Of a stretch of DNA of 34,483 nucleotides, positions 8,787-31,145 are shown piece after piece; the stretch's first letter is position 1; each line of letters starts with the position of its first letter. The position numbers and the translations under genes were made by a program. The stretch lies in NCBI GenBank assembly GCA_001817055.1, contig MHHP01000016.1, positions 1 to 34,483 of the forward strand, in the 5' to 3' direction. Origin of the DNA: Candidatus Andersenbacteria bacterium RIFCSPHIGHO2_02_FULL_45_11 (lineage in GTDB: Bacteria; Patescibacteriota; Andersenbacteria; UBA10190). The notes under the pieces were generated by a model. That model did not search any database and was not told the origin of the DNA. It saw only the letters and a program-made list of their open reading frames with translations.

Positions 8787-11700
8787 TTATACACGACGCG
8801 TGGTTGATCGGTAGATAGCGTATCCAAGCCCTGCAATCACTAGGGCAAGGAGCCAATACATCCAGTTTTTCCGTAGTGCGCTCGGAGAGTCTGCTTCTTG
8901 TGGCTCTGGTGTTGGAGATATAGTCTCCTGTTCTCCCGCAACTTCAGGAGACGTTGTTGGTGTAGGAGATGGTGACACCGATAGTGTCTGTGATACTTGC
9001 TGCCCAGATGTTGTCGTTCCGTACACTCGCCCACTTCCTGTTTCATATGCAATTTGTGTTCCCGTAACTACCGGTGCAGCAATCGTACTTGCTGGAGATT
9101 TCTTTGCTGTTGTCTTGGCGCCCAATACCCTTCCTGCAGAAGATGACGAAACTGTTGTGCTCGATGATGAATCTCCACTGCTTCCGCCAGTCCCCGCTCC
9201 GCCAGTTGTTGGTTCTGTGCCAAACGAGTATTCGTTACTTACCGATTCCGGTGAGCCCGCAGAAATCACACGGTAGAAATACGTAGTGTTGGAATTCAAC
9301 CCGCTAATAAGTACTGAATGATTTGTGACTTTGTTCGGCGCAACATCTAACAAGTCCGAAGAATTCGTATATCCATAATTAGGGCCACTTCCCAGTACTG
9401 GCACAGACGTTGTTCCAAATACCACGCGTGAAGTGGACGGATCGTCTGTAGTCCAGTCAATTCTTCGCTCTTGAGAAGGATTACTTGTAGTAATTGCGAT
9501 TATGCTTTGTTCGGATACTACAGGGGCAATTGCATATACTTCCGTCATAATTCCAGATGCATTAGAAGCGCCATCAATTGCGATTGCTTTCAGCGTTAAT
9601 GAATGATCAATAGTAACCGGGCCAGTATATAGCGTACTTGCAGATGTTGGAGTGCTACCATCTAATGTGTAATAGATAGTAAACGCATTTGCATCAGTAC
9701 TTGAGATCGTAACACTTTGGTCAACAAGGTAATCTCCACTTGGAATATTTGCAACCGGTGTTGTTGGAGCAATAGTGTCTACAACGTTTACCGTTCGAGT
9801 TACTTGTGTTGCTGAATTTCCTGCTGCGTCATTTACGTTATGTGTAACGGTATACGCTCCTACAGCATTGGTATTTACAGGGTTTACCGTAACAATATTC
9901 GCTGTGATGTTTCCGTCCACGTCATCAGATGCCGTTGCACCTGCATCCGTATATGTAGTTCCAAATTCAACGGTAACAGGCGTTGAACCTGCAAGTGTAA
10001 TGAGCGGCGCAGTAGTGTCAATTACTACCTGCGTTGAAACTACTGGCGTACTTTCATTTCCTGCATTATCAGTAGCTTTCACCGATACGGTATACGAACC
10101 TTCAGCTAATGTTGTGGTTGTAAATGAATACGTGTCATCTCCTGAGTTATAGCTTGCAAGATTCCAGTTCGATCCACCATCGGTGGTGTATTCAACTTTT
10201 TGAATTCCAGAATTATCATCAGTAGCCGTGCCTGTAAATGAAGGTGTTGTATCGTTTGTAGGAGATGCTATGGAATTGATTGTTGCGACCGGATTCACCG
10301 TATCTACATTTACTGTTCCAGTTACAGATTCAGCGCTTTCATTCCCTGCATTATCAACCGCCTTTACGAAGAAGTTCCATATGCCATCGGTCAACGAACT
10401 AATGTACGAAGCTGTAGCATCTGCTGTTTGGTCTGCAATAGTTGTTGCACCTTGTACTGCACGAATTACGTAATGAGATATATCCGACGCTGCGCTATTT
10501 ACTGCATTATCAACAGAATCTGCCCACGCCCATGTTTGCAACACAAGCTTAGTAGGACTTAGCGTAGAAGGTAGCCCAGGAATGGTTGGGGAAGATTTAT
10601 CGATTCTTACTTGCGTTGCCTCGGTAACAACAGCTTCCGTATTGCCAACTGCATCTACCGAGAAATATTTGATCGTATATATTCCATCAGTTGTCAGCGA
10701 TATGGTTGATCCGATATTGCTTCCAATAGTTGGAGTATCGCCATTTGTTGTGTAGTACGTAGTGTTGCATCCGGCTGCACCAACATCATTGCACGTTAAC
10801 GTAATCGTCACATCCTGGTTTGTCCAAGCACCATCAATTGCAGACGCAGTTGTTGCGGGCGCTGTTCGATCAATCGTTACTTCCCATGGGCCAGACCAAT
10901 CACTGCAATTCCCTAATGAGTCACACGCACGAACCTGCCAGTAGTAGGTTCCATTTGAAGTACCAGAAGCATCAATCTCAGAAGTACTCATTGCTCCGGA
11001 TGTATATATAGGTGAACTGAATGCATTGTTCGCACCTACTGCATCAGAGGTTGCAGACTGGTAATAATATGTAACTGGGTTATTAAGGCCATCAGAAACA
11101 TCTTCCCAGTTTAGGAGGAGGCCGGTTGCAGCTACCAGCGCCCCATCTGCAGGGCCCGTAAGCGCAGGTACGGCTGGAGCGTCGGCATCAATAAAGAATG
11201 GGCCAACATGCATTGCCGCAGACCAATTACCAGCGTTGTCTACCGTTCGCAGATGGAAGTAATGGGAGTCTCCTGCCACCAAACTCGAACTCGTTACGTT
11301 CGTAGTAGTTTCTTCGTCATCTTTTGTTGCATCTGGCGTAGTTATAGCATTGGTATCCCACTCGTATGAGAAGCCATCTACTCCAGATAGTGCATCGGTT
11401 GCGCCGCTAATAGAAAGATCGACGGTGGTGTCAGTTGACCATGTTGAAACTGTATGGCTCGTGGATGTAACTGTAGGGTTTACCGGTACCACACCATCAA
11501 TAGTAACCATCCATGGCCCAGACCAGTCACTACAGTTATCCAATGAATCGCAGGCACGAGCTTGCCAGTAGTAGGTGTTATCTGGTGAACCGGAAGCGTC
11601 AATTTCAGAAGCACTTAACGCACCTGATGCATATGGAGAGGAGGTTAGTGCGTTATTCGCGCCTACCACACTATTCAAAGCAGATTGATAATAATAACTA

Positions 11701-15666: not shown

Positions 15667-16488
15667 CTATAATAATTTCTTAAGCGTTTTGTTTCCGGCC
15701 AATGATCGCATTTGGACGATGGCAATTTCATTAAGGGTCAACAATCGATCGGGTTGAGCTAGTCCCTGCCGAATAAATTCGGCGTTCAGTGATTCCAGAT
15801 TTGCCAGGCAAACGAGCTGGGTAACATCAGCATAATCTCTCATGTTTCCTTCTTTTCTTTTGTTGGCATCCTTCCAGGCTTTTGCAGTCAATCCAAATAA
15901 TGCAACATTCAACACGTCGGCTTCATTGGCGTACGTTATGTTTGCATTTTTTCTTGATAACTTTTGAGGAACTATAATATTTTCTTTGATTGCGTCAGTA
16001 TGAATCCTATAATTAATTTTCGTGAGCATCCTTTTTGTATCCCAGCCAAGTTCCAGCTTTTTATTTTCTTCCAGCTTTAGCCTTTGAAATTCTTTGATCA
16101 AATACAGCTTAAATTCCGGAGAAATCCATGAAGCAAACTCGAATGCGATGTCCTTGTGAGCAAATGTGCCTCCACCATAGCGCCCAGCCTTACTAATCAA
16201 TCCTACGGCATTTACCGACTCAATCCAACGCTTGGGCGTAAGAGAGAAACTATTTGCACCTGCCTCGTTTTTAAACACATCGAATTCGATGTGTTTAAAA
16301 TTAGGGTTATGCAAATGTTCCCAAATACCTAAAAACTCGACAGTGTCTCGATTTCTCATCCAGTTTTGAACAACGTACTCAGTCCGCTCCTTATCTTTAA
16401 ATCGAGCTATATCTGTTAATGAAATATAATCATTTTCATTCCGTTCAAAAGTATATACTTGGATTCCCTTGGCAATAATCTTCTTCAT
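15667..16488 (-). CDS. KilA-N domain DNA-binding protein
   Basis: N-terminal YISLTDIARFKDKERTEYVVQNWMRNRDTVEFLGIWEHLHNPNFK and GRYGGGTFAHKDIAFEFASWISPEFKLYLIKEFQRLK match the widespread KilA-N protein family. Confidence 0.8.
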   Translation of the reverse strand: MKKIIAKGIQVYTFERNENDYISLTDIARFKDKERTEYVVQNWMRNRDTVEFLGIWEHLHNPNFKHIEFDVFKNEAGANSFSLTPKRWIESVNAVGLISKAGRYGGGTFAHKDIAFEFASWISPEFKLYLIKEFQRLKLEENKKLELGWDTKRMLTKINYRIHTDAIKENIIVPQKLSRKNANITYANEADVLNVALFGLTAKAWKDANKRKEGNMRDYADVTQLVCLANLESLNAEFIRQGLAQPDRLLTLNEIAIVQMRSLAGNKTLKKLL

Positions 16489-20416: not shown

Positions 20417-21147
20417 AGTTTCGCCATCGCCTGCCGTTTCCAATCCTTTGGCATTTTTTCTATTGCGTATCGAAGCGCAACGCGCGACATTTTCGCTTTA
20501 TTTTTCATTACATATGCAAATACTTCGTTGGGGTATATATTACTCGCCTCTTTTAAGAGCCATCCGTAGCCTTTGCGTACCAAATCATCTTCGTCCGCCA
20601 TGAGCGCATCTGCTGCGGCAAATACGTCGGGCAATGTATTACTGCGCTTTATGGGGACAATAAGGGCAACGGCGGAAGCGCGGCGTACCCATCTGTTTTT
20701 GGATTTCCGCCACGGTACGGTTTTCTGTATAAGCTGCGGATAAGTTGCAAGCAGCTCCCCCAGCGCACCCGTACACAAATCGTCACACTTCGCCCAGTTG
20801 TTTACATAGTTTTTTACCCAGCGATCAAATACGACGAAATCCTTCGGCTCAAATTCCGTCCGCATTCTATATGCAAAATCGTACACAATCACCGAATCCT
20901 CTTGCATATTGGTTTTTAGCAACTCTTCGCACAACGCAAATATAGTAACCCTGAAGTGATGCGAAGCATCTACTGCGGGGCTTCGCTCAATTTTTCGAAA
21001 AAATTTACTTGCAATCTTTCGCACTATCGGGATCCGCACGCCATACAGCTCAATCCCCTCCTTGAAAAACCTCTGTTGCGATTTTTTGTAGGCAGGATCG
21101 GCGTTGAGTTTGAGTTCGGAGTGTATGGATTCAAGAAGGGATATCAC
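20413..21147 (-). CDS. DNA alkylation repair protein (AlkD/AlkC-like HEAT-repeat family)
   Basis: DPAYKKSQQRFFKEGIELYGVRIPIVRKIA, NNWAKCDDLC, WVRRASAVALI and DDLVRKGYGWLLKEAS match the DNA_alkylation family. The GTG start overlaps the upstream stop (GTGA). Confidence 0.85.
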   Translation of the reverse strand: MISLLESIHSELKLNADPAYKKSQQRFFKEGIELYGVRIPIVRKIASKFFRKIERSPAVDASHHFRVTIFALCEELLKTNMQEDSVIVYDFAYRMRTEFEPKDFVVFDRWVKNYVNNWAKCDDLCTGALGELLATYPQLIQKTVPWRKSKNRWVRRASAVALIVPIKRSNTLPDVFAAADALMADEDDLVRKGYGWLLKEASNIYPNEVFAYVMKNKAKMSRVALRYAIEKMPKDWKRQAMAKL

Positions 21148-21479
21148 AGGTTTTTAAGATAGTTCTCAATACGGCCACGATCCTCATTTTCCTTATTACC
21201 CTTAAAGTATATTTCAATATGGACAAACGTTATTGTTGCATCGTGGTACGCGTAGATGATACGCATCGATCTGTCGCGCAGGGTTTTACACGCTAATCGG
21301 GCTTTTACAATCTTCACATCCTCTTGAACGTGAATAATGGTGAAGTTCTTCCCTGCTCCCGTTGGCATTACAGAAATAACGGCCTCAAAATCACGTAAAT
21401 CCTTCTCAAGGCTTCTATATTTTTTTGAGAGTTTTTTTAATTCGCGAGCAAATTCCGGAAGTTGCTCAAAGTTGCTCAT
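21144..21479 (-). CDS. RelE/ParE-superfamily-like toxin (111 aa)
   Basis: N-terminal FARELKKLSKKYRSLEKDL and core RSMRIIYAYHDATITFVHIEIYFKGNKENED resemble HigB/Gp49-type toxins. Overlaps the upstream antitoxin gene by 14 nt. Confidence 0.65.
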   Translation of the reverse strand: MSNFEQLPEFARELKKLSKKYRSLEKDLRDFEAVISVMPTGAGKNFTIIHVQEDVKIVKARLACKTLRDRSMRIIYAYHDATITFVHIEIYFKGNKENEDRGRIENYLKNL

Positions 21480-22200
21480 ATTCTCTTACGGACGTTTCTT
21501 CCGGACGATAAAATACATATTCATAATTGAGCACTTCACGATCTTGGGCAACCCTCCATGGCGTATCACTATGCGACAACTCCGATAACTTACGAGCACT
21601 TAAATGCGCTAAGCGCTCCAACTCGTCATCAATATGTTTTAATTCTTGCCCGGATAAACTTGAAACGTCCGCTTCTTTCACGGGAATATATTTCGTCTGA
21701 TCGAGATCAAAATACTTACTTTTAACTTCGACTATCTTTCCGTTATCTTCCATATTCTTTACGAGCTTCGCAAACGATACCGGCGTTGGACCATACGTGT
21801 TTTTTATATACGTTGCACCTATAAGCTGCTCTTCGTATTTTTCGTAGTAATCGAAATCTATAAAATACAGTAATTTATATAACACTGTTTGCCCAATATT
21901 CGGACGGCTTCCTACTTTGCCTAATATATACAGCAGTACTTGCTGAAACTTCTGTTCGTTTTCTTTGGGAATTTCTCGAATATCTACCTTATCTAATGGA
22001 ATATATTCAGCAGAGCCGTCTTCTACCGCATCATGAGACATAGCAAAAATACGCGACAAGATTGCTTTCTGCTCCTCAGTGGGCTTAGCAATACCCTTTT
22101 CAAGCTTGATATACGTTGGACGCGAAATGCCAAGACTACTCGCAACATCCTGCTGTGAGAGCCCTACCAGTTTCCGTTTGCCTTGTATCCAACTAGCCAT
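21466..22200 (-). CDS. XRE-HTH plus DUF4065 (Panacea/SocA-like) antitoxin candidate
   Basis: HTH LSQQDVASSLGISRPTYIKLEKG. DUF4065-like KLLYFIDFDYYEKYEEQLIGATYIKNTYGPTPVSF. Confidence 0.8.
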   Translation of the reverse strand: MASWIQGKRKLVGLSQQDVASSLGISRPTYIKLEKGIAKPTEEQKAILSRIFAMSHDAVEDGSAEYIPLDKVDIREIPKENEQKFQQVLLYILGKVGSRPNIGQTVLYKLLYFIDFDYYEKYEEQLIGATYIKNTYGPTPVSFAKLVKNMEDNGKIVEVKSKYFDLDQTKYIPVKEADVSSLSGQELKHIDDELERLAHLSARKLSELSHSDTPWRVAQDREVLNYEYVFYRPEETSVREYEQL

Positions 22201-22263: not shown

Positions 22264-22327
22264 ACTACCAGCCGTCAATGTGGCCGAAGCTAACATTTTA
22301 TTCACCCTAATGAGTGACTGTTTCTTT

Positions 22328-22579
22328 TTACCAACTACGATAGCTCGAATACGGACTACGGTACCCCCTGCTTCCCGTATACGGGTTATAGTTGCCGCGC
22401 GTAGACCAATTATCGTATCGGGTTGAGTTCGGACTTGTACGATAGTGCGGCATTACGTACGTACCGCTACTGTGATAATATCCCCCTACCCTAGAATAAG
22501 CTTCCGCACCTTGAACGGAAAATCCAATTCCAATCATAAATAAACCGATCGCTAACAACGTAAATAAGTATTTTTTCAT
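22328..22579 (-). CDS. small secreted Tyr/Arg/Ser-rich protein (83 aa)
   Basis: Signal peptide MKKYLFTLLAIGLFMIGIGFSVQGAEA. The mature part is GGYYHSSGTYVMPHYRTSPNSTRYDNWSTRGNYNPYTGSRGY. Confidence 0.6.
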   Translation of the reverse strand: MKKYLFTLLAIGLFMIGIGFSVQGAEAYSRVGGYYHSSGTYVMPHYRTSPNSTRYDNWSTRGNYNPYTGSRGYRSPYSSYRSW

Positions 22580-22667
22580 ACTAGAAGCATACGTGCGAGC
22601 ATGCTGGATAGCAATGGAGAAAAATTATTTCTCGTATAGAACAAAATATGGCAACTTAGCGTTACAC

Positions 22668-25007
22668 CTATCTAGAATATTCCCGCACTCTATCCGTTTT
22701 CGCGTACAATTTTTGTTGAAAATCAAAGAAGATGGAGCGAATACTTTCAACACTTCCAAGCGCCTGCTCCGCATTCGCGATAGCGTGATATTTTAAGTTT
22801 AATAATATTGGCAGTTTTTCTTCATCTAGTTCTTCAACTCCCTTTTCTTCGTATTTCGACAGTACAAAATCCAGAAATTCTTTTTGCTCTTCGTTTAATC
22901 CTGAAAAGATTTTGTTTTTTGCTTGCTGCGCGCGATCTACTCTTGAAACTGGTTCTGTCAAAAATGAAATATATGTTAAAACATCAAACAAGTCGCTCTG
23001 CTCGGCATCAATCATTTTTTGTAATGTTTCCAATTCATCTTTTCCATATCCAATTGCAGACATTTTTTCTAGAAATACTTTGCGCGTAGTTGGATTCGAC
23101 CAAATTCTCCGCAACTCTTCTTCGCTCTTGAAAAATTCCGGCATAGCCCCAAACATATTGTCCATAAATTCCTGAACAGAAATTGGTTTACCATCGGAAC
23201 TCCAAAAAGAAGTGGAAATCATGTGCTGTATTTCTCGCTCTTTTCCATCACGTAACTTGATTTTCAGTTTTGTCTTTGGCTCTTCCGGACCCACATCATC
23301 CACGACTATATCCGTGTCTTGTGGCCCCTTTGGATACACTAATACCGCTGGTTTATCTTCGGTTACTTCCACGATCGGCTCTCCATCCCATTCCGGATCA
23401 GAAAAATGCTTATATGCATCTACAAAGTCATAAATCGTAAAATATTCTTTGCCATCAAAAAGTCTCGTACCTCGCCCAATAATCTGCTTGAACTCGATCA
23501 TAGAATTAACTGGGCGCATAAGAACAATATTCCGAATATTGCGTGCATCTACTCCCGTAGAAAGTTTTTGAGAAGTGGTCAAAATAGTTGGGATTGTTTT
23601 TTCATTATCTTGAAATTCACGTAGGTACTGTTCGCCTCGAGCGCCATCATTGGCAGTTACGCGAACACAATAATTAGGGTCTTTATTTTTCTTCATTTGA
23701 TTTACCAAATCACGAACGGCTAATGCATGGTCTTGTGTTGCACAAAATATAATCGTCTTTTCGTTTTGATTTATTTCATCTAATACCACTCGAACCCTTT
23801 TTGCTTCTCGCTCTTTAATAACGATAATTCGATTAAAATCCGGTTCTTCATACAGCTTGCCTTCTTCAACTTCCCCCTCAATCACTTGGTCATCAGATGT
23901 GTACCTGTAATCATCCAGCGTGGTACTGATTCTTTTTATTTTAAATGGTGTTAAGAAGCCGTCATTTACTCCCTGTTTAAGAGAGTATGTATATACGGGG
24001 TCTCCAAAATATTTGTATGTATCTACGTTGGCTTGCCGTTTTGGAGTCGCCGTTAACCCAAGCTGCACTGCTGGTGAAAAATATTCCAAAATTCCGCGCC
24101 AATTACTTTCATCGTTCGCACCCCCACGGTGACATTCGTCTATAATAATCAAATCAAAAAAGTCTGGTGGGTATTCTCCGAAATACGGCGTACCGCCTGG
24201 CCCACTCATGAACGTTTGGAAGATTGTAAAATAGACACTGCCCGACATCGGCACTCCACCTTTCTTGCGAATATCTAGAGGATTTATACGAACTCGTGCA
24301 TCTTCGTCAAACGCGGAAAATGCGTTAATGGCTTGGTCGGCTAAAATATTTCGATCAGCTAAAAATAATATTCTTGGCCTGCGAGCCCCGTCTCGCTTCA
24401 AGTTCCAACGGGTTTGGAATAATTTCCAAGCAATTTGAAATGCAACGGCCGTTTTTCCGGTTCCCGTTGCCATCGTTAAAAGTATTCTCTGTTTGTCTTC
24501 AGCTACGGCACTCAAAACATTGTGAACGGCAATTTCCTGATAATATCTTTTGCCATAGTCGCCCTCATTTGGAACACCTGCAAATTTTTCCTTCCACTCT
24601 TCGCCTGACGCGAACTGACCCGAATATCTTTTATTCCATAATTCGTCAGGGGTTGGAAAATTTGTAATAGTGCTTTCTCGTCCACTTTCCATAGACATTT
24701 CATAAATCTCTTTCCCGTTCGTTGCATAGGTATAATTAATCTGCATTTTTTGCGCATATGCTTTTGCTTGTGCCACGCCCTCACCTACAGCAAGCCCTTC
24801 CGCCTTAGCTTCTATCACTCCAATCTTTGTATTTTTATATACCAAAATATAGTCGGCAATCTCCGGTTTACTACGCTTCCCACCTACTTGAATTTTGCCG
24901 TCCGTAATACGAAATTCACGTAGTACTTTTGAACCCTCAATAACGCCCCAACCAGCTTCTTTGAGTTTTGGGTCAATATGTTCAGCTCGAGTTTCCGATT
25001 CGTTCAT
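22668..25007 (-). CDS. hsdR: type I restriction enzyme R subunit
   Basis: N-terminal SETRAEHIDPKLKEAGW. Helicase motifs TMATGTGKT and IIDECHRG. EcoEI-R-C-like tail (ELRRIWSNPTTRKVFLEKM...DLFDVLTYISF). The ATG at 25007 is preferred; the TTG at 25043 is the ORF-track start. Confidence 0.92.
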   Translation of the reverse strand: MNESETRAEHIDPKLKEAGWGVIEGSKVLREFRITDGKIQVGGKRSKPEIADYILVYKNTKIGVIEAKAEGLAVGEGVAQAKAYAQKMQINYTYATNGKEIYEMSMESGRESTITNFPTPDELWNKRYSGQFASGEEWKEKFAGVPNEGDYGKRYYQEIAVHNVLSAVAEDKQRILLTMATGTGKTAVAFQIAWKLFQTRWNLKRDGARRPRILFLADRNILADQAINAFSAFDEDARVRINPLDIRKKGGVPMSGSVYFTIFQTFMSGPGGTPYFGEYPPDFFDLIIIDECHRGGANDESNWRGILEYFSPAVQLGLTATPKRQANVDTYKYFGDPVYTYSLKQGVNDGFLTPFKIKRISTTLDDYRYTSDDQVIEGEVEEGKLYEEPDFNRIIVIKEREAKRVRVVLDEINQNEKTIIFCATQDHALAVRDLVNQMKKNKDPNYCVRVTANDGARGEQYLREFQDNEKTIPTILTTSQKLSTGVDARNIRNIVLMRPVNSMIEFKQIIGRGTRLFDGKEYFTIYDFVDAYKHFSDPEWDGEPIVEVTEDKPAVLVYPKGPQDTDIVVDDVGPEEPKTKLKIKLRDGKEREIQHMISTSFWSSDGKPISVQEFMDNMFGAMPEFFKSEEELRRIWSNPTTRKVFLEKMSAIGYGKDELETLQKMIDAEQSDLFDVLTYISFLTEPVSRVDRAQQAKNKIFSGLNEEQKEFLDFVLSKYEEKGVEELDEEKLPILLNLKYHAIANAEQALGSVESIRSIFFDFQQKLYAKTDRVREYSR

Positions 25008-25058
25008 ATATGGGTACAATGCAACATTTTCAGTATTTTGCAAAGCTCAAAGAAAAAC

Positions 25059-25451
25059 TTACAGCGTATCCCTAAGCTCAGAATAATTCTCAGCAATCAT
25101 CCTTTTCCAATTAGCAGTTTCATTACTGCCCCCTAAGTCTGTTTTCCCATACACAAGCAATATGGATACATACTGCTTATCCGGATACCACGCGACGATG
25201 CATCTATTACCAGATCCTTTTGGCGATTGCTTACTTTTTACAATACTAAATTCTGTTTTTACGATTCTTACATGTCCGAGATCAGCAATAGTTTTCGCTT
25301 TCTCTGTGAGAAGTAACCTGTCGATACGCTCAAGCTCTGCAATAATTGCGAGCAAGGTAACGTCCCAATGAGATTTATATTTTTTCTCAAAACTTTTTAT
25401 AAAGTGTCGCTGCGCAAACTGCTCAATTCGTACAGAATAATTCCCTTCCAT
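25059..25451 (-). CDS. RelE/ParE-superfamily-like toxin (130 aa)
   Basis: FAQRHFIKSFEKKYKSHW and GNRCIVAWYPDKQYVSILLVYGKTD follow the same pattern as the 21144-21479 product. Starts 5 nt after the antitoxin stop. Confidence 0.6.
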   Translation of the reverse strand: MEGNYSVRIEQFAQRHFIKSFEKKYKSHWDVTLLAIIAELERIDRLLLTEKAKTIADLGHVRIVKTEFSIVKSKQSPKGSGNRCIVAWYPDKQYVSILLVYGKTDLGGSNETANWKRMIAENYSELRDTL

Positions 25452-25456
25452 AGCGC

Positions 25457-26149
25457 TTAGTACACCAATGCGGAATCTTCTTGGGTTATAAGCTCATATG
25501 GAATAAGCTCATTTTCTCGACACAAAAAGTATGGCAGTTGATTGTGAGTAAAATTTACAATCTCGTTCGTTTTTTTATCTTTCCACTTCTTTGCAATTTT
25601 TTTCATCAATGCACTCTCGCCCTCAGACAACGTTTGAATTTTCTCGTTTTTGTTACTATCTGATTCGCTAATCAAAAACATCTCTTTGCCTTCTGTGTTT
25701 TTATGCTCAATGGTAATTTTCCCAGATTCTTCTAGCTCATCAATTGCACGAAAAAACGCATCGGGTACTGGGCCAAATGTTATCTTCCTATATTGCATAC
25801 CACTCATGCTTTCTAAGTTGTCATAAAACCACGCAAAGTCAGCAAGATACAACAGTTTGGCGAGTTTTGTTTTCGGAATTTTTCCGTCTTCCGAAACGTT
25901 CATACGCAGATATGCGAGTATCATGTGTTTGTATTTTTCCATATTTGGAATAACGCCAGACAACAACTCATCAACACCTATACCAAATAGCGTTGCTAAT
26001 TTCTTTGCTTCGTCCAGGCTCAGTTCCTGTTTACCCGCTTCAATGGCCGTATACGTTGGCCGAGATACACCGATTACTTGCGCCACCTGCTCTTGGGATA
26101 GCTTTTTCTCAATACGAAGCTCTTTTACTTTTTGTATATACATATTCAT
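25457..26149 (-). CDS. XRE-HTH plus DUF4065 (Panacea/SocA-like) antitoxin candidate, second copy
   Basis: HTH LSQEQVAQVIGVSRPTYTAIEAG. DUF4065-like KLLYLADFAWFYDNLESMSGMQYRKITFGPVPDAF. Start moved to the ATG at 26149 because the TTG at 26185 is the -35 box of a promoter. Confidence 0.8.
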   Translation of the reverse strand: MNMYIQKVKELRIEKKLSQEQVAQVIGVSRPTYTAIEAGKQELSLDEAKKLATLFGIGVDELLSGVIPNMEKYKHMILAYLRMNVSEDGKIPKTKLAKLLYLADFAWFYDNLESMSGMQYRKITFGPVPDAFFRAIDELEESGKITIEHKNTEGKEMFLISESDSNKNEKIQTLSEGESALMKKIAKKWKDKKTNEIVNFTHNQLPYFLCRENELIPYELITQEDSALVY

Positions 26150-26156
26150 GTATATA

Positions 26157-26185
26157 AGTATATGCCAAGAATGTAATATAGTCAA
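26157..26185 (-). promoter_or_regulatory. sigma70-like promoter 7 nt upstream of the antitoxin ATG
   Basis: Minus strand reads TTGACT-N17-TATACT-tatatac-ATG(26149). Confidence 0.55.
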
Positions 26186-26203
26186 TCAACTTTTGCTTAT
26201 TTA

Positions 26204-26231
26204 TTGACATATTTGGTAATAGGATTACAAT
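26204..26231 (+). promoter_or_regulatory. near-consensus sigma70 promoter for the KTSC gene
   Basis: TTGACA(26204-26209)-N16-TACAAT(26226-26231), then 5 nt to the GTG at 26237. Its -35 and the divergent promoter's -35 form the inverted repeat GTCAAT...ATTGAC. Confidence 0.55.
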
Positions 26232-26236
26232 GAGCG

Positions 26237-26509
26237 GTGCCAGATTCGTCGGGCTGGCAACTAATCAACCAAGAATCAAAGCACATGACTCCATATAAAA
26301 ATTTGTCTGGTGATTCGAGTGTCGATGCATACGAATATACAAGCAACAGTATTACTGTTCGATTTAATGACGGCATGCATTACCTATACTCAACACGTCA
26401 AAATCCAATGAGCGAAATCCTGCAAATGCAAAGTTACGCAGATGCTGGCAGCGGTCTAGGCACAATGCTTTCGACCAAGCCATATCATCCACACGATTCT
26501 AAGTGGTAA
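26237..26509 (+). CDS. KTSC domain protein
   Basis: VDAYEYTSNSITVRFNDGMHYLYSTRQNPMSEILQMQSYADAGSGLG fits the KTSC pattern (i..i.Yd...L.V.F..G..Y.Y..vp......l..A.S.G). The start is ambiguous: GTG 26237 or ATG 26285. Confidence 0.65.
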   Translation: MPDSSGWQLINQESKHMTPYKNLSGDSSVDAYEYTSNSITVRFNDGMHYLYSTRQNPMSEILQMQSYADAGSGLGTMLSTKPYHPHDSKW

Positions 26510-26537
26510 TGCAGTTCGAAAAAGTCGCACTTTACTA

Positions 26538-26568
26538 AAGAGTCCGTATACATTGCGGTCTCTTTTTT
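26538..26568 (+). terminator. terminator candidate after the KTSC gene
   Basis: AAAGAGTCC-10 nt-GGTCTCTTT (one mismatch) running into a T run. Overlaps the 3' end of hsdS on the other strand. Confidence 0.4.
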
Positions 26569-27718
26569 ATAATTCCCCCGCAAATGCTTTTTTAAGCACC
26601 GATTTTTTCAATTCCTCCAAATCAGCCAGTTTTTGCGTATAAATCGCCTCAAGTTTTTTCGTTTCCGCCGAAAGCGCATCGAGCTTGGTGACGATAGCCT
26701 TTTGATTGAGGAGTGGAGGGTATGGGATGGGAATAGCATTCAACATCTTTTGATTTAGTTTTGGCTGGGCCATTCCACTAACATACGGATTCAGCTTTAT
26801 AGAATTTAGATAATATTCTACAAACTTTTGAGTATGTATTTTTTCAAACCTTAATATATGCGCGTGGTTATTAACCCATGATTTACCGCTGATGGAGAAT
26901 GCGATTGGATATGTACGAGCCAGTAAGTTTGCCCCATCCTCTGAAACTAAAAGTAAATCATTATCAAAAATATATTCACCAACATAATCCACAACTCCTG
27001 ATGCACCATAATATGGGTATTCGCCAGAAGTACGGAACTTTTTTGTTATAGGGATTCTTTTATTGTCCATATTTTCAGAAATTTCATTCAGTTTTTTCTC
27101 CTCCCAATCCGTACCAGGATTCGCAAAAACACTCTGTAAATATGATCCAAAAAGTTCTTTTGAATTTTGTAGATTTTTTTCAGTATTTTCTTTCGCTTTC
27201 GATATTTTTGAGAGGATATCGTCTAGGATTTTTACGATGCGACGTTGCTCAGCGAGAGGCGGGATATGGAGTTCTAAACTTTGCAGCTTTTGAATTGTCA
27301 GTGTATCGACCGTTGCTCCATTACCTCGGTCGAGTTGGTCGAAAAAGAGGGGCGACTTTAACCACATATTAACGAACTCACTACGTACTTCGATGCCTTG
27401 TTTCAGCCATAAAACGCTTGCATCTTTAAAATAGAATCTGTCACTATCTCGTACCACATACGAATTCCCAATCGTTCCGATTGCAGTTAGGACAATATCA
27501 CCAGCTTGCGGAACTCCCGTTTGTTCCGATAGTTGAGCAAAGTGTTCTTCGGATATATATAATTCATTGTCCACAAAACCGTCGGCAGCCAATCGTGTTA
27601 TTTCCCGCCCACGATAAAAAGGGACTCCGCTTGTCTTCCATTGTGACTTCAAAACACGTTTACTTGAGCCAATTTGATAAAGCTCCCCAAGCTTTTTTGT
27701 TTGCCAGTTAATTTTCAT
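26567..27718 (-). CDS. hsdS: type I R-M specificity subunit
   Basis: Two target-recognition halves, each followed by a conserved helical spacer (LAEQRRIVKILDDILSKISKAKE and LLNQKAIVTKLDALSAETKKLE). The ATG at 27718 overlaps the upstream stop (ATGA). Confidence 0.9.
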   Translation of the reverse strand: MKINWQTKKLGELYQIGSSKRVLKSQWKTSGVPFYRGREITRLAADGFVDNELYISEEHFAQLSEQTGVPQAGDIVLTAIGTIGNSYVVRDSDRFYFKDASVLWLKQGIEVRSEFVNMWLKSPLFFDQLDRGNGATVDTLTIQKLQSLELHIPPLAEQRRIVKILDDILSKISKAKENTEKNLQNSKELFGSYLQSVFANPGTDWEEKKLNEISENMDNKRIPITKKFRTSGEYPYYGASGVVDYVGEYIFDNDLLLVSEDGANLLARTYPIAFSISGKSWVNNHAHILRFEKIHTQKFVEYYLNSIKLNPYVSGMAQPKLNQKMLNAIPIPYPPLLNQKAIVTKLDALSAETKKLEAIYTQKLADLEELKKSVLKKAFAGEL

Positions 27719-28320
27719 AATTTTCCCGAGCTCTGGCAAAAGTCTTTATCTTCTTTTGTAAAATATCTATTACTCTCTATATCTTGGTATTCAAGGTAAA
27801 TTTCATTATCCTTATTAGTTTTTTCAAATTTATTATTGTCATACGATGCATGTATCGCACCTCCAATGGGCAACCACCCCCATTTTTCAAACAAAATAAT
27901 CTTTTTACCAACTTCTTTGCCATTTTCAGTAATAGCCTCCTCTGTAATTTCATTTCCAAAATGGAGTTTGTATTTTTTATGCTGAATAATTATATGTCCA
28001 GAAATATCTTTAACAATGTTTTTTTGGTTTAGAAACTCTAAAGTAAAGCCATTGCTTTGAATATCTGAGGTAGAATTCACTTTCCAGTCCAATATTTTTC
28101 CTTGCCTCAAAATTACAGGCCTTAGAGCTGATTCAACGGTCTGATTGGCCATTCTGTGCGTGTCATACGCATACCAAATCAAAACTATTAAAGTAGCTAT
28201 CAATGCGAGTAAATTCAATGGTGCATAGAGTTCCGGGAATTCAAAAATTCCCACCACGATAACAGTGCCGAAAATAATCAACAAAACATCTATTCCGATT
28301 TCTTTTGCATGCCACGTCAT
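27715..28320 (-). CDS. unknown 2-TM membrane protein with ~140-aa soluble C-terminal domain (gene Y)
   Basis: TM helices IDVLLIIFGTVIVVGIF and LNLLALIATLIVLIWYAY. ATGA overlaps at both ends (28317-28320 and 27715-27718). No family recognised. Confidence 0.7.
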   Translation of the reverse strand: MTWHAKEIGIDVLLIIFGTVIVVGIFEFPELYAPLNLLALIATLIVLIWYAYDTHRMANQTVESALRPVILRQGKILDWKVNSTSDIQSNGFTLEFLNQKNIVKDISGHIIIQHKKYKLHFGNEITEEAITENGKEVGKKIILFEKWGWLPIGGAIHASYDNNKFEKTNKDNEIYLEYQDIESNRYFTKEDKDFCQSSGKL

Positions 28321-28901
28321 AATTGCAAGAATTTTTGAAGTAGCGGCTGTAGAATTTGCCAAATCGTCAAAGAATTCGCTGTAACTGAAATTGTTTCCGA
28401 AATGCCGCTCATAAGAGTTTTAATAACCGTCTTTTTACGATTTTCCGACTTCTGAAACAGTTCTTTAGTAATTACATCTAGACTTTCAAGAACTTCGCTC
28501 TGCTGCTCTTTCGATAAACCTTGTTCACTTAAAATTGCTTCTGAAAACTTTTTTATATTTTCTGCAAGCTCTATCTGTGATACTGAATATAAAGTATCAA
28601 TGGTTTGATCTAAATTTTGAATATTACTTGTATTGAGTATACCGATCTGGCTATCATTTATCGCGATATGATTAACTGTCGACCCTGCAACTAATATTGA
28701 TCTTTTTAATGGGTATCTGGCGCCAGTAGAAATGCCAAACATGGAGTCAATCGAATCGTGAATATAATTCATTTCTTCGCGCAATGCATCACTCTGTTTC
28801 TGCACCGTTCCTTGTAATAGCGCCCAGCATTGTAAGCATAAGGGGATTTTTTGTGGTCCTACCTCGCCCACAGCATTATTATCGCATTGGTTACACTTCA
28901 T
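28317..28901 (-). CDS. unknown zinc-ribbon plus helical protein (gene X)
   Basis: N-terminal CNQC-x15-CLQC. The C-terminal ~90 aa are helical/coiled-coil-like (ELAENIKKFSEAILSEQGLSKEQQSEVLESLDVITKELFQKSENRKK). The ATG overlaps the hsdM stop (ATGA 28898-28901). Confidence 0.7.
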   Translation of the reverse strand: MKCNQCDNNAVGEVGPQKIPLCLQCWALLQGTVQKQSDALREEMNYIHDSIDSMFGISTGARYPLKRSILVAGSTVNHIAINDSQIGILNTSNIQNLDQTIDTLYSVSQIELAENIKKFSEAILSEQGLSKEQQSEVLESLDVITKELFQKSENRKKTVIKTLMSGISETISVTANSLTIWQILQPLLQKFLQL

Positions 28902-30349
28902 ATTAATTTTTTAATATCAATGAGAAGCTTTCCATTTTCCTTATCCAACTTACCCATTTCCTCCAGTATCTCTTTCGGCTCACGCAAAAGTTCTTCATCC
29001 GTTTTGGTTGGATTTTTGACGGATAAATCGAATGTTACTTGGTTTATGCCTTCTATCTTTACGCTCCAAGAATTTTTGCTGTCTGCGTTGATTTTTTGGA
29101 GTTCTACAAATTCTGCTAAATCATTTTCGTTCAGCGGATTACCTTTGCCAAGATTGCGATCGAGATTGAGTTGGTAATACCAAATTTTCTTCGTCGGCTT
29201 ACCTTTTTCGAAAAAGAGTACAATAGTTTTTACTCCGGCGCCTTGAAAGGTACCACCCGGCAAATCAAGCACTGCATAAAGACTACAAGTTTCCAGTAGA
29301 AGCTTACGCAAAGAAACTGATGCGTTATCGGTATTTGAGAGAAATGTATTTTTAATAACTATGCCAGCCCTGCCGCCCGCTTTGAGAATTTTTATAAAAT
29401 GCTGGAGAAAAAGAAACGCAGTTTCGCCCGTTTTAATAGGAAAGTTCTGTTGAATTTCTCGCCCAATACCTGCACCAAATGGTGGGTTCGCCAGTACAAT
29501 ATCGTAGCGGTCTTTTTCTTGAATGTCGTTAATATTTTCTGCGAGCGTATTGATGTGTTTGATATGCGGCGCTTCAATGCCATGCAATATCATATTCATA
29601 ATGCCGATAATATAGGCCAAGGATTTTATTTCTTTGCCATAGAACGTTTTATTTTGCAGTATCGCCATTTGGCTGGAAGAAAGCTTTGTTTGGTTTTGCG
29701 TAAGGTAGTTAAACGCTTCCACCAAAAACCCTGCGCTACCGCACGCACCATCGTAAATAGTTTCTCCAATTTTTGGCGCAACTACTCTAACTATAGTTTT
29801 GATAAGCGGGCGCGGCGTATAGTACTCTCCCCCGTTACGTCCGGCATTCCCCATGTTCTTGATTTTTGATTCATATAAGTGCGATAGCTCATGCTTTTCT
29901 TCGTATAAACGGAAATGCATATCATCCACAATATTCAAAATTTCCCGCAATTTATATCCGCTAGAAATTTTGTTCTTCAGTTCTGAAAAAATTTCACCTA
30001 TTTTATATTCGATTGTATTTGGATCTTCTGCTTTAAATTTTTTCAAGTACGGGAAAAGGTTAACATTTACAAATTCTTTTAGGTCATCGCCATCCAACGC
30101 CTTGCTATGCTCAAGTTTATTGTCCGCCCCCTTAGGGCAAGCCCACGCATTCCAACGATACTCGGGAGCTAAAATATATTCATAACTCTTCCCCGCAAGT
30201 GCGAATTCCGTCTTCTTCGTTTCTTCCAGATCATCAAGGTATTTTAAAAACAAGATCCATGACGTTTGCTCTACATAATCAAGCTCTGTTGCAGAGCCAG
30301 AATCTGTATGTAGAATATTGTCTATATTTTTAAATGCTTGTTCAAACAC
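28898..30349 (-). CDS. hsdM: type I R-M DNA methyltransferase subunit (N6-adenine)
   Basis: HsdM N-terminal ELDYVEQTSWILFLKYLDDLE. SAM motif I YDGACGSAGFL. Motif IV VLANPPFG. GTG start. Confidence 0.93.
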   Translation of the reverse strand: MFEQAFKNIDNILHTDSGSATELDYVEQTSWILFLKYLDDLEETKKTEFALAGKSYEYILAPEYRWNAWACPKGADNKLEHSKALDGDDLKEFVNVNLFPYLKKFKAEDPNTIEYKIGEIFSELKNKISSGYKLREILNIVDDMHFRLYEEKHELSHLYESKIKNMGNAGRNGGEYYTPRPLIKTIVRVVAPKIGETIYDGACGSAGFLVEAFNYLTQNQTKLSSSQMAILQNKTFYGKEIKSLAYIIGIMNMILHGIEAPHIKHINTLAENINDIQEKDRYDIVLANPPFGAGIGREIQQNFPIKTGETAFLFLQHFIKILKAGGRAGIVIKNTFLSNTDNASVSLRKLLLETCSLYAVLDLPGGTFQGAGVKTIVLFFEKGKPTKKIWYYQLNLDRNLGKGNPLNENDLAEFVELQKINADSKNSWSVKIEGINQVTFDLSVKNPTKTDEELLREPKEILEEMGKLDKENGKLLIDIKKLI

Positions 30350-30355
30350 ATGCTA

Positions 30356-30384
30356 AATATAGCCGTAAATTTGCCGGTTTACAA
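30356..30384 (-). promoter_or_regulatory. sigma70-like promoter 6 nt upstream of the hsdM GTG
   Basis: Minus strand reads TTGTAA(30379-30384)-N17-TATATT(30356-30361)-tagcat-GTG(30349). No SD. Confidence 0.4.
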
Positions 30385-30408
30385 CATGAAATACGTACGG
30401 TTTGCGAA

Positions 30409-30437: not shown

Positions 30438-31145
30438 CTATTTCAACAACCCTTCTGTACGAAAGCTAAAATGATCGGTTTTGGTGACGATGACGTGATC
30501 TAGCAGACCTATGCCCATGAGCGTGCCAGCTTCTGCGAGGCGTTGCGTTACCGCAAAATCAGCTTCGCTGGGGTGTGGATCGCCAGAGGGATGATTATGA
30601 GCTACGGCGATGCTTGCGGCATGGTGGGATATGGCGATTTCGAACGTTTCGCGCGGATGCACGAGGCTGGAATTTAATGTGCCAACGGTAACGGGATCCG
30701 TACTCGCTACACGATTGCGATTATCGAATGAGATAACGAAAAAGTGTTCCCTATTCCAATCACGCATTTTCTTACGAACAATCTCTGCTATTTGGTTAGC
30801 CATTGCCACGGCTTCAGAATTGTTTTTCTTGCGCTCTTTCTTACGCTCCACTTTTATAACCCGTCTGGCAATTTCAAGACTGGCTTTGAGCTGCAACGCT
30901 TTTGCGGGGCCAAGGCCTTTGATTTGTTGCAAGTCTTCGAGCGATGCATTCACGATGGCCTCTAGAGTTTTAAACTGTTTCATTAAATCGCGCGCAATAT
31001 TCATAACCGATTGGCCGGCCACTCCCCTGCCAAGCAATACGGCTAGTAGTTCTTGCGCGGATATTTTATCAGCCCCTTCGCGCACCATACGTTCACGCGG
31101 ACGTTCATCGAGAGGCAAGTCGTGAACTGTGAAAGAATCGGACAT
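30438..31145 (-). CDS. radC: RadC-like JAB/MPN domain protein
   Basis: HhH-containing N-terminus (LEDLQQIKGLGPAKALQL) and JAMM motif HNHPSGDPHPSEAD. Confidence 0.9.
   Translation of the reverse strand: MSDSFTVHDLPLDERPRERMVREGADKISAQELLAVLLGRGVAGQSVMNIARDLMKQFKTLEAIVNASLEDLQQIKGLGPAKALQLKASLEIARRVIKVERKKERKKNNSEAVAMANQIAEIVRKKMRDWNREHFFVISFDNRNRVASTDPVTVGTLNSSLVHPRETFEIAISHHAASIAVAHNHPSGDPHPSEADFAVTQRLAEAGTLMGIGLLDHVIVTKTDHFSFRTEGLLK

What the first reader, a model, noticed from the sequence alone, without database searches (positions are those of the whole stretch)
27715..28901. Two uncharacterised genes translationally welded between hsdM and hsdS of a type I R-M operon
Read directly on the minus strand, all three junctions are 4-nt ATGA overlaps: hsdM/X (28898-28901), X/Y (28317-28320) and Y/hsdS (27715-27718). 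The four genes therefore form one tightly coupled unit.

- X (194 aa) has an N-terminal CxxC-x15-CxxC zinc ribbon and a long helical tail.
- Y (201 aa) has two TM helices and a ~140-aa soluble domain.
- I recognise neither as a known family.

Canonical type I systems have hsdM directly coupled to hsdS. Genes embedded in hsd loci are known to be defence effectors, for example the PrrC anticodon nuclease in EcoprrI and the rlo genes of Campylobacter hsd loci.

A putative sensor-like Zn-ribbon protein and a membrane protein are co-translated with the methyltransferase. This suggests either an R-M-linked abortive-infection or backup module, or membrane tethering of the MTase. This is the best candidate in the window for an undescribed system.
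Basis: partly seen in the sequence, partly recalled or inferred. Interest (0 to 1): 0.8.

Follow-up and report, generated by a model that had tools for sequence, protein, structure and literature searches.

The report
Two orphan genes inside type I R-M operon
A restriction-modification operon of an uncultivated ultra-small (CPR) bacterium carries two extra genes of unknown function fused in between its methylase and specificity genes; each recurs in related operons but independently of the other, so they look like two separate cargo genes, possibly anti-phage, rather than one new two-gene system.

Summary
On the minus strand, hsdM / X (194 aa) / Y (201 aa) / hsdS are joined by three ATGA overlaps. 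X has a 4-Cys zinc ribbon and a helical tail. Y has a TM hairpin and a ~135-aa beta domain.

Neither protein matches Pfam, NCBIfam, PHROGs, PDB sequences or PDB folds. The one link is a weak match of X to PDC-M14B, an untested PADLOC candidate.

Related metagenomic loci change the interpretation: X and Y are independent modules.
- X is welded to the 3' end of hsdM in 7 loci. What follows it varies: nothing, a 3-TM protein, SLFN/AlbA_2, a RelA/SpoT protein. It is followed by Y only in this window.
- Y is welded to the 5' end of hsdS in 5 loci. What precedes it is hsdM, a HEPN protein, DUF3800 or X.
- Both also occur outside hsd operons.
- Y's first ~8 codons copy the start of the adjacent hsdS, a scar of insertion at that junction.

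Best reading: the hsdM-hsdS junction in this CPR lineage is a cassette hotspot holding two unrelated, uncharacterised embedded genes. A defence or backup role is plausible by analogy with Ronin and PrrC but untested. Moderate interest; a new variant of a known kind.

The parts
28898..30349 (-). hsdM, type I N6-adenine DNA methyltransferase (483 aa)
   Evidence: Pfam N6_Mtase 1.4e-62 and HsdM_N. PADLOC MTase_I 1e-152. 73-83% identical to the hsdM of related CPR loci.
28317..28901 (-). X: 194-aa protein with a 4-Cys zinc ribbon, a conserved linker motif (..NHIxIxxSxIGxLNTGxI..) and a C-terminal helical bundle. Its start overlaps the hsdM stop (ATGA).
   Evidence: Sequence. About 50 close homologues. 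1226 clusters at 50% identity with E<=1e-3. C3, C6 and C22 invariant. AF2 model. No Pfam, NCBIfam or PHROG hit. Weak PADLOC PDC-M14B hit, E 1.4e-5; at least 50 of 110 relatives hit it, best 9.4e-10.
27715..28320 (-). Y: 201-aa membrane protein with an N-terminal TM hairpin, a conserved juxtamembrane motif (WYAYDTHRxANQT) and a beta-sandwich domain. Its start overlaps the X stop and its stop overlaps the hsdS start.
   Evidence: Sequence. About 45 homologues. AF2 mean pLDDT 89. Hydropathy. No family hit. No significant PDB fold match.
26567..27718 (-). hsdS, type I specificity subunit (383 aa from the ATG at 27718)
   Evidence: Pfam Methylase_S 2.9e-41, two stretches. PADLOC Specificity_I 1.2e-104. 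The N-terminus MKINWQTKKLG matches homologues.
25059..26185 (-). Second embedded module, between hsdS and hsdR: an HTH-Panacea (SocA-like) antitoxin-type gene (25457-26185) and a 130-aa partner (25059-25451)
   Evidence: Pfam HTH_3 plus SocA_Panacea. The same pair recurs in L004/L005 and L034/L035.
22668..25043 (-). hsdR, type I restriction/helicase subunit (791 aa)
   Evidence: Pfam ResIII, EcoEI_R_C, Helicase_C, HSDR_N. PADLOC REase_I 2.4e-138.
30438..31145 (-). radC-like gene bordering the low-GC hsd island. It is a recurrent upstream neighbour of these R-M cassettes.
   Evidence: Pfam RadC 4.3e-41. RadC lies upstream of the R-M genes in L002, L032 and L034. GC is 0.49, against 0.34-0.40 for the island genes.

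Best explanation
**What it is.** In this lineage of CPR/Patescibacteria type I R-M systems (hsdM 73-83% identical across loci), the hsdM-hsdS junction is a hotspot into which small cargo genes are inserted. In most loci the insertion preserves stop/start overlaps. The window carries two such cargo genes, X and Y, which are independent of each other.

**X.**
- X is a non-enzymatic zinc-ribbon and helical-bundle protein.
- It belongs to a large uncharacterised family and is distantly related to the PADLOC candidate PDC-M14B.
- It typically sits directly after hsdM.

**Y.**
- Y is a membrane-anchored protein with a beta-sandwich domain that I infer to be cytoplasmic.
- It typically sits directly before hsdS.
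- It entered by an event that duplicated the first ~20-30 nt of hsdS, so its N-terminus copies that of HsdS.

**Shown.**
- The operon architecture.
- The independence of X and Y.
- The recurrence of each junction.
- The insertion scar.
- The absence of any known family or fold.

**Inferred.**
- Both genes are co-expressed with the methyltransferase genes.
- They act as R-M-associated accessory or backup defence factors.

**Mechanism I commit to, at low confidence.**
- Y is a membrane-acting effector or anchor whose activity is restrained by, or coupled to, the HsdM2S complex, as RonA is in Ronin.
- X is an adaptor or regulator made in step with HsdM.
- X and Y do not need each other.
For: **Junctions and gene identity:**

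**X directly after hsdM with a 4-nt overlap:** window, L001, L008, L009, L010, L011 and L014.

**X embedded but not adjacent to hsdM:** L002/L003 and L016.

**The gene after X varies** (no slot proteins are homologous to one another):
- Y in the window only
- a 3-TM 146-aa protein (L001)
- a 203-aa protein (L002)
- a 216-aa protein (L008)
- hsdS itself (L009)
- SLFN_AlbA_2 (L010)
- a 125-aa protein plus RelA_SpoT/PDC-S33 (L011)

Sources.

**Y directly before hsdS with a 4-nt overlap:**
- window
- L029/L017 (DUF3800-Y-hsdS)
- L032 (HEPN-Y-hsdS)
- L040 (HEPN_Swt1-like-Y-hsdS; hsdM 82% and Y 73% identical to the window's)
- L041 (hsdM-Y-hsdS, both junctions ATGA)

Sources.

**Insertion scar:**
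- The 5' end of Y equals the 5' end of the adjacent hsdS: 19/19 nt in L040 and 21/22 nt in L032.
- In L029 both copies share a locus-specific Val codon.
- At least 16 of 25 aligned Y homologues start with the HsdS-like (N)WxxKK motif (my count).

**Other support:**
- Low-GC island: X 0.37 and Y 0.34, against flanks of 0.46-0.49.
- At least 50 of 110 X relatives hit PDC-M14B models.
- PDC systems were defined by embedding in BREX, DISARM or type I R-M loci (Payne et al., bioRxiv 10.1101/2024.01.29.577857).
- Precedent for an hsdMS-linked membrane effector: RonA/Ronin (bioRxiv 10.1101/2023.04.06.535777).
Against: - No experiment, and no recognisable catalytic or toxin motif in X or Y. The conserved positions of X are Cys, Gly, Asn and Ser, which look structural.
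- Y occurs in plainly housekeeping neighbourhoods: between ArgRS and IleRS in L026, and after a Band_7 gene near dnaE in L023.
- Distant Y-like proteins in Acidobacteria, Methylophilaceae and Saccharibacteria are not in hsd loci.
- The two distant X relatives whose context could be seen (L036, L038) are not in hsd loci.
- The embedding may therefore reflect only a permissive insertion site, not a functional link with R-M.
- Context sample sizes are small: 13 X contexts and 8 Y contexts. They are biased towards contigs long enough to read.
- No multimer prediction could be run, so there is no evidence for contact between X or Y and HsdM or HsdS.
Confidence: 0.55

Rival explanations
1. Modular R-M guard. 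X is a conserved sensor or adaptor made together with HsdM, and it partners with interchangeable downstream effectors. The effectors would be Y here, and a 3-TM protein, a toxSAS-like RelA/SpoT protein, a HEPN-like protein or SLFN AlbA_2 elsewhere. When a phage anti-restriction protein disables the methyltransferase, X releases or activates the effector and infection is aborted.
For: - X is the constant first gene after hsdM in 7 loci, while the following gene varies and is often of toxin or effector type.
- Solo X in L012 is followed by a HEPN-like protein.
- X relatives match PDC-M14B, the second gene of a two-gene candidate cassette.
- PrrC and Ronin are precedents for guards linked to hsdMS.
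Against: - L009 and L016 have X followed directly by hsdS, with no gene between them.
- L013 has X followed by an ABC transporter, and L004-L007 have X followed by a convergent gene.
- In L011 a separate 125-aa gene lies between X and the RelA/SpoT gene.
- The closest Y relatives pair with HEPN proteins or with hsdM directly, not with X.
- No PDC-M14A-like partner was found.
Confidence: 0.15
2. Accessory subunits of the methyltransferase. X (coupled to HsdM) and Y (coupled to HsdS) are lineage-specific structural or regulatory partners of the type I enzyme. They might control assembly, stoichiometry or membrane localisation of M2S in these very small cells. They would not be independent defence effectors.
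For: - Strict stop/start overlap with hsdM (X) and with hsdS (Y) in several independent loci.
- No enzymatic motifs in either protein.
- Y's N-terminal residues are the same as the HsdS N-terminus.
- The X-only operon L009 and the Y-only operon L041 show that each can be the sole insert.
Against: - Closely related hsdM genes (82% identical) do without X (L032, L040), and most X-containing operons do without Y.
- Both genes exist outside hsd operons.
- The Y of L041 lacks the HsdS-like N-terminus, so that peptide is more likely a scar than a docking element.
- X evolves faster (45-72% identity) than hsdM or hsdR (66-83%).
Confidence: 0.15
3. Neutral or selfish passengers. The junction simply tolerates small in-frame-coupled inserts, and X and Y have functions unrelated to R-M or phage defence. 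Y, for example, could be a membrane housekeeping protein.
For: - Y lies between tRNA synthetase genes and next to a Band_7/SPFH gene.
- Distant Y-like and X-like proteins are not in hsd loci.
- Some slot cargo is of mobile-element type: AntA and PRiA4_ORF3 in L016.
Against: - Repeated, independent embedding of both families in R-M loci, including a type II R-M locus for Y (L034).
- The company they keep is of defence or toxin type.
- X is related to PDC-M14B.
- Solo X sits beside an SLFN-type helicase gene and a Panacea toxin-antitoxin-like pair.
Confidence: 0.15

Closest known systems
PADLOC candidate PDC-M14 (protein B), from the guilt-by-embedding screen of Payne et al., bioRxiv 10.1101/2024.01.29.577857
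   Same: - X residues 76-180 (conserved linker motif and helical bundle) align to the C-terminal ~100 positions of PDC-M14B profiles at E 1.4e-5.
- At least 50 of 110 wider X-family members hit these models, best E 9.4e-10.
- PDC systems were defined as cassettes embedded in BREX, DISARM or type I R-M loci, the same kind of context as here.
   Different: - PDC-M14B profiles are 261-276 positions long. X covers only their C-terminal part and has a zinc ribbon plus a long helix in place of their N-terminal ~150 positions.
- No PDC-M14A partner is present.
- PDC-M14 is listed only as a candidate in the text and tables I read; I saw no phage test of it.
Ronin (RonA with HsdM and HsdS), Silas et al., bioRxiv 10.1101/2023.04.06.535777
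   Same: A small membrane protein gene tightly linked to hsdM/hsdS. RonA is toxic alone, is held in check by HsdMS, and is released when anti-restriction proteins bind HsdMS. Y is likewise a TM protein translationally coupled to hsdS and hsdM.
   Different: - RonA is 61 aa with one TM helix. Y is 201 aa with a TM hairpin and a 135-aa beta domain.
- Most Ronin-carrying E. coli genomes lack hsdR altogether, whereas here hsdR lies 1.5 kb downstream in the same orientation.
- Sequence similarity to RonA was not tested because its sequence was not at hand.
- Toxicity and triggering are untested.
PrrC anticodon nuclease in EcoprrI, and the rlo genes of hsd loci
   Same: An extra gene embedded within a type I R-M locus and thought to act as a backup when restriction is blocked (as summarised).
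   Different: PrrC has an ABC-type ATPase domain and a HEPN-like nuclease domain (background knowledge). X and Y have neither: no Pfam or PADLOC hit of that kind.
Panacea (PanA) promiscuous antitoxin modules
   Same: One conserved small protein next to many unrelated toxin-like partners, which is the pattern that X shows with its variable downstream genes. Genuine HTH-Panacea pairs are present in the same island.
   Different: X has no Panacea or HTH domain. Several X loci have no adjacent toxin-like gene. No neutralisation data exist.

Membership tests
Type I restriction-modification system (host operon) | HsdM with N6_Mtase and HsdM_N; HsdS with two target-recognition domains; HsdR with helicase and nuclease regions | tested here: met
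   Pfam and PADLOC hits for all three subunits.
PADLOC PDC-M14 | Protein B matching the PDC-M14B profile over most of its length | tested here: inconclusive
   X hits at E 1.4e-5 but only profile positions 155-249 of 261. At least 50 of 110 relatives hit, best E 9.4e-10. This is a shared domain, not full-length membership.
PADLOC PDC-M14 | An adjacent protein A (FAM_02625) upstream of B | tested here: not met
   No PDC-M14A hit for Y or for any neighbour of X tested. The upstream gene here is hsdM.
Ronin | A small TM effector gene tightly linked to hsdS-hsdM | tested here: met
   Y has two TM helices and overlaps hsdS. In L041 it overlaps hsdM as well. This is an architectural resemblance only.
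Ronin | hsdR typically lacking from the locus; the system acts as a decoy | tested here: not met
   A full-length hsdR lies at 22668-25043 on the same strand.
Ronin | Effector toxic alone, suppressed by HsdMS, triggered by Ocr/ArdA | not testable with these tools
   Needs expression experiments.
Ronin | Sequence homology to RonA | not tested
The lengths differ threefold (61 aa against 201 aa).
PrrC/RloC-type embedded anticodon nucleases | ABC ATPase-like N-domain and HEPN-type nuclease C-domain | tested here: not met
   No ATPase or HEPN hit for X or Y in Pfam, NCBIfam or PADLOC.
Any curated protein family or known fold (Pfam, NCBIfam, PHROGs, PDB) | Significant profile or fold match | tested here: not met
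   - Pfam, NCBIfam and PHROGs: nothing below E 0.04.
- PDB sequence profiles: nothing below E 0.03.
- Foldseek against PDB: best E 0.037 for Y and 1.8 for X.
- BFVD: one unnamed viral protein at E 4e-5, TM-score 0.38, for Y.

The most novel reading that the evidence does not exclude
X is the conserved, HsdM-coupled sensor or adaptor of a modular 'R-M guard'. It pairs with interchangeable effectors: the Y membrane protein here, and 3-TM, toxSAS-like, HEPN-like or SLFN proteins in sister operons. It would convert inactivation of the type I methyltransferase by phage anti-restriction proteins into abortive infection. Y would be a new membrane effector class whose HsdS-mimicking N-terminus helps it dock on HsdM.
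Probability: 0.12. Interest if true: 0.8.

Novelty: new variant of a known kind. Interest (0 to 1): 0.45.

Why it matters
Genes embedded inside R-M, BREX and similar operons have proved a productive source of new anti-phage systems. PrrC and Ronin show that such genes can guard the R-M enzyme against phage anti-restriction proteins.

**What this locus offers.**
- Two families with no curated annotation. The X family is large: more than 1,200 clusters at 50% identity. I found it almost only in uncultivated bacteria.
- An unusually clean architecture, with X welded to hsdM and Y welded to hsdS.
- A visible insertion scar that shows how cargo enters the hsdM-hsdS junction without breaking translational coupling.

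**If either gene modulates restriction or aborts infection,** it would add a new R-M-linked defence component. It would also give a first functional handle on defence in CPR bacteria.

**If neither does,** the locus still documents a cassette hotspot inside a type I operon.

Tried and rejected
**Family and fold searches that found nothing.**
- Pfam, NCBIfam and PHROGs for X and Y.
- PDB sequence-profile searches.
- Foldseek against PDB for both models.
- Foldseek of Y against viral structures gave one unnamed hit at TM-score 0.38, which is uninformative.

**Collection searches that found nothing.**
- IMG/VR viral contigs with the X and Y alignments. The wider alignment A5 was too diverse to seed a scan.
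- tblastn of family consensus sequences: X against PLSDB plasmids and INPHARED phages, Y against PLSDB plasmids.
- Cluster look-ups for names and taxa returned almost only unnamed metagenomic proteins. The few names were Gracilibacteria, Minisyncoccia, Patescibacteria and one Deltaproteobacteria MAG.

**Ideas considered and rejected or left open.**
- *X-Y as a conserved pair.* Rejected on co-occurrence, which is seen in one locus only.
- *Y as a degenerate HsdS target-recognition domain.* Rejected, because no HsdS structure appears among the fold hits.
- *Y as an NfeD-like partner of SPFH/Band_7* (suggested by L023). Not supported by Pfam or fold hits, and seen in one locus only.
- *Solo X copies as remnants of broken hsd operons.* No hsdM remnant lies upstream of them.
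- *X as the antitoxin of the downstream gene.* Left open, but weakened by loci that have no downstream toxin-like gene.
- *PDC-M14 literature.* Only cassette tables exist, with no description or test.
Full report
**1.

On the minus strand the ORFs are as follows:
- hsdM, 28898-30349
- X, 28317-28901
- Y, 27715-28320
- hsdS, 26567-27718

Each pair is joined by ATGA, in which the stop codon of one gene overlaps the start codon of the next.

Pfam and PADLOC identify the flanking genes as a type I methyltransferase and a specificity subunit. They also identify a full-length hsdR at 22668-25043. An HTH-Panacea gene and a 130-aa gene lie between hsdS and hsdR.

No terminator-like site separates hsdM from hsdS on that strand.

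4-nt overlaps are frequent in this genome: by my hand count, 4 of about 19 other same-strand neighbour pairs in the window. Three in a row is therefore suggestive rather than remarkable. What makes the junctions meaningful is that they recur in other organisms (section 4).

**2. The two proteins**

*X*
- X has C3-x2-C6-x15-C22-x2-C25.
- The AlphaFold2 model (mean pLDDT 72) gives a small ribbon, a long helix (23-55), a low-confidence linker (56-92) and a helical bundle (93-191).
- The linker is nevertheless the most conserved stretch (..G..RYP...P..GGT.NNHI.I.NS.IG.LNTG.I..).
- C3, C6 and C22 are invariant across a 110-sequence alignment in which members are 23-66% identical to the window's X. 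This supports the ATG at 28901 as the true start.

*Y*
- The model is confident (mean pLDDT 89). It shows two hydrophobic helices, a helical extension carrying the near-invariant motif WYAYDTHR(I/M)ANQT, and a beta-sandwich at 69-200.
- Charge distribution suggests that both termini and the beta domain face the cytoplasm. This is inference.

*Searches of known families and folds*
- Neither protein matches Pfam, NCBIfam or PHROGs.
- Neither matches PDB sequences by profile search.
- Neither matches PDB folds.
- The viral structure library gave Y one unnamed hit at TM-score 0.38.

**3. Family sizes and the one database link**

- X has about 50 close homologues at 44-75% identity.
- In an exhaustive profile search of 1.84 billion representative proteins, X finds 1226 clusters with E<=1e-3 and 586 with E<=1e-10. 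Nearly all are about 195 aa.
- Y has about 45 homologues. Some have a ~70-aa insertion in the beta domain.
- More distant proteins share the TM-plus-WYAYDT module. They come from Acidobacteria, Methylophilaceae, a delta-proteobacterium and Saccharibacteria.
- Where a source names the organism, close relatives come from CPR bacteria: Minisyncoccia, Levybacteria, Gracilibacteria and Patescibacteria.
- Neither family was found in IMG/VR viral contigs or PLSDB plasmids, and X was not found in INPHARED phages.

The only hit to a described entity is PADLOC PDC-M14B.
- X residues 76-180 match the C-terminal part of those profiles at E 1.4e-5.
- At least 50 of 110 wider X-family members hit them, best E 9.4e-10.
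- PDC-M14 is a two-gene cassette. Payne et al. listed it as a candidate because it is embedded in BREX, DISARM or type I R-M loci. I found no test or description of it (bioRxiv 10.1101/2024.01.29.577857).

**4. Genomic contexts change the interpretation**

I fetched 43 related loci and annotated them with profiles of X, Y and the window's hsd proteins.

*X, close family: 13 distinct contexts*

| Context | Loci |
|---|---|
| Directly after hsdM, 4-nt overlap (7 loci) | window, L001, L008, L009, L010, L011, L014 |
| Inside the hsdM...hsdS interval, not adjacent to hsdM | L002/L003 (hsdM-NYN-268aa-X-203aa-hsdS-Fic-hsdR); L016 (hsdM-AntA-PRiA4_ORF3-X-hsdS) |
| No hsd gene visible on the contig | L004-L007 (an SLFN-type helicase gene and a Panacea pair a few genes away); L013 (followed by an ABC transporter); L015 (X split into two ORFs) |
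| Contig starts 178 nt before X, so upstream unknown | L012 (followed by a HEPN-like protein; no hsdS within about 6 kb) |

The gene after X differs from locus to locus:
- Y, in this window only
- a 146-aa 3-TM protein
- unrelated 203-aa and 216-aa proteins
- SLFN AlbA_2
- a 125-aa protein followed by a RelA/SpoT protein that matches PDC-S33 at E 4e-101
- nothing, as in L009 and L016, where hsdS follows directly

These slot proteins share no detectable homology with one another.

*Y: 8 distinct contexts*

| Context | Loci |
|---|---|
| Directly before hsdS, 4-nt overlap (5 loci) | window; L029/L017 (hsdR-hsdM-x-DUF3800-Y-hsdS); L032 (hsdM-HEPN-Y-hsdS); L040 (hsdM-HEPN_Swt1-like-Y-hsdS); L041 (hsdM-Y-hsdS, ATGA at both junctions) |
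| Type II R-M locus | L034 (RadC-MutH-like-Dcm-Vsr-364aa-Y) |
| Housekeeping neighbourhood | L023 (Band_7-Y); L026 (ArgRS-Y-IleRS) |

*What this shows*
- L040 has an hsdM 82% identical and a Y 73% identical to the window's, yet it carries a HEPN-type gene where the window has X.
- One MAG has X and Y under locus tags about 2,500 apart.
- X and Y are therefore separate modules. X is associated with the 3' end of hsdM, and Y with the 5' end of hsdS.
- Only this window, among the loci seen, has both.

**5. An insertion scar**

The N-terminus of Y in hsd-linked copies (MKTNWQTK/Q...) is the N-terminus of the adjacent HsdS (MKTNWQTKKLG...).
- At the DNA level the two starts are identical for 19/19 nt in L040 and 21/22 nt in L032.
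- In L029 both copies share a locus-specific Val codon.
- At least 16 of 25 aligned Y homologues begin with this (N)WxxKK motif (my count).
- The window's copy has diverged: MTWHAKEIG against MKINWQTKKLG.
- The Y of L041, which follows hsdM directly, lacks the motif. A docking function for this peptide is therefore unlikely.

The simplest reading is that Y entered at the very start of hsdS in an event that duplicated the first ~20-30 nt of hsdS. Y thus borrowed the hsdS start codon and first codons, and the ATGA junction was recreated at its 3' end.

The whole hsd island is low in GC: genes at 0.34-0.40, against 0.46-0.49 for the flanking radC and pif1-like genes. X and Y are the lowest.

A radC-like gene lies upstream of the R-M genes in L002, L032 and L034 as well.

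**6. What it most likely is**

*Shown*
- The hsdM-hsdS junction of this family of CPR type I systems is a cassette hotspot. Its contents turn over faster than hsdM diverges.
- X and Y are two independent occupants.

*Inferred*
- Both genes are co-transcribed with, and translationally coupled to, the methyltransferase genes.
- Both have R-M-associated accessory or backup-defence roles. This follows from the company they keep (HEPN, toxSAS-like, NYN, SLFN, DUF3800) and from X's relation to PDC-M14B.

*Mechanism I commit to, at low confidence*
- Y is a membrane-acting effector or anchor coupled to the HsdM2S complex. RonA of Ronin is the precedent: a 61-aa TM protein that is toxic alone, is restrained by HsdMS, and is released by Ocr/ArdA-type proteins (bioRxiv 10.1101/2023.04.06.535777).
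- X is a non-enzymatic zinc-ribbon adaptor or regulator made in step with HsdM.

*Rivals*
- X as a promiscuous guard with swappable effectors.
- X and Y as true accessory subunits of the enzyme.
- Both as passengers unrelated to defence.

The housekeeping contexts of Y and the non-hsd contexts of distant relatives of both families keep the passenger reading alive.

**7. Comparison with known systems, and novelty**

- The host operon is an ordinary type I R-M system.
- X shares a domain with PDC-M14B but is not a full-length member and lacks the A partner.
- Y resembles RonA only in being a TM protein welded to hsdMS. It is three times longer, and hsdR is present here.
- Neither protein has the ATPase or HEPN domains of PrrC.
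- Embedding of unknown genes in type I R-M operons is an already described phenomenon.
- New here are the two protein families, their separate and strict coupling to hsdM and to hsdS, and the duplication scar.
- I rate this as a new variant of a known kind, of moderate interest (0.45).

**8. Limits**

- The context sample is small and depends on contig length.

Noticed in passing
window 25059-26185 (minus strand), between hsdS and hsdR: An HTH_3 plus SocA/Panacea antitoxin-type gene (242 aa), followed 5 nt later by a 130-aa gene with no family hit. The same pair recurs in L004/L005 and L034/L035, which are the loci carrying solo X and type II R-M-linked Y. It looks like a Panacea toxin-antitoxin pair embedded in the hsd locus.
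   Followed up: partly
window 21144-22200 (minus strand): A second HTH-Panacea gene (244 aa) overlaps by 14 nt a 111-aa gene with no Pfam hit. The two Panacea proteins are paralogous (E about 2e-19), but the 111-aa and 130-aa partners are not detectably related.
   Followed up: partly
window 26204-26558 (plus strand): A 90-aa ORF (26237-26509) runs antisense to the hsd operon. It lies between the best promoter-like site of the region (11 of 12 matches, 26204-26231) and a terminator-like hairpin (26544-26558). It matches phrog_17428 at E 3.9e-15 but no Pfam family.
   Followed up: no
window about 22300-30400 compared with its flanks: The whole hsd island is low in GC (0.34-0.40 per gene). The radC-like and pif1-like genes next to it are at 0.46-0.49. 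A radC-like gene is the upstream neighbour of R-M cassettes in L002, L032 and L034 as well. This suggests a conserved integration or exchange site next to radC.
   Followed up: partly
Y homologues P0064, P0066, P0068-P0070, P0075, P0076 (e.g. L032 7001-7846): Long Y variants (271-281 aa) carry a conserved insertion of about 70 aa in the beta domain (LSDLEKxILLxLYExYK...GIRLxD). By eye it resembles a winged-helix DNA-binding module. This was not tested.
   Followed up: no
L011 2690-3724; L010 1648-2160; L016 817-2244; L012 797-1759: Cargo next to X in sister loci includes a RelA_SpoT protein matching PADLOC PDC-S33 (E 4e-101), an SLFN AlbA_2 protein, an AntA antirepressor-like protein with a PRiA4_ORF3 protein, and a HEPN-like protein.
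   Followed up: partly
L004-L007, around X (e.g. L004 7971-8558 and L005 7924-8511): The same solo X allele and downstream genes sit behind two different upstream neighbourhoods. One is housekeeping genes. The other is a transposase with a ParB-methylase region. X therefore lies at the edge of a variable region.
   Followed up: no
L015 97-645: An X homologue is split into two ORFs, which suggests a frameshifted or decaying copy.
   Followed up: no
window 5289-6380, 8787-13346, 15667-16488: Elsewhere in the window there is a Fic/DOC gene, a 1519-aa protein rich in Ig-like and surface-protein domains, and a KilA-N domain gene. A Fic gene also sits between hsdS and hsdR in L002.
   Followed up: no
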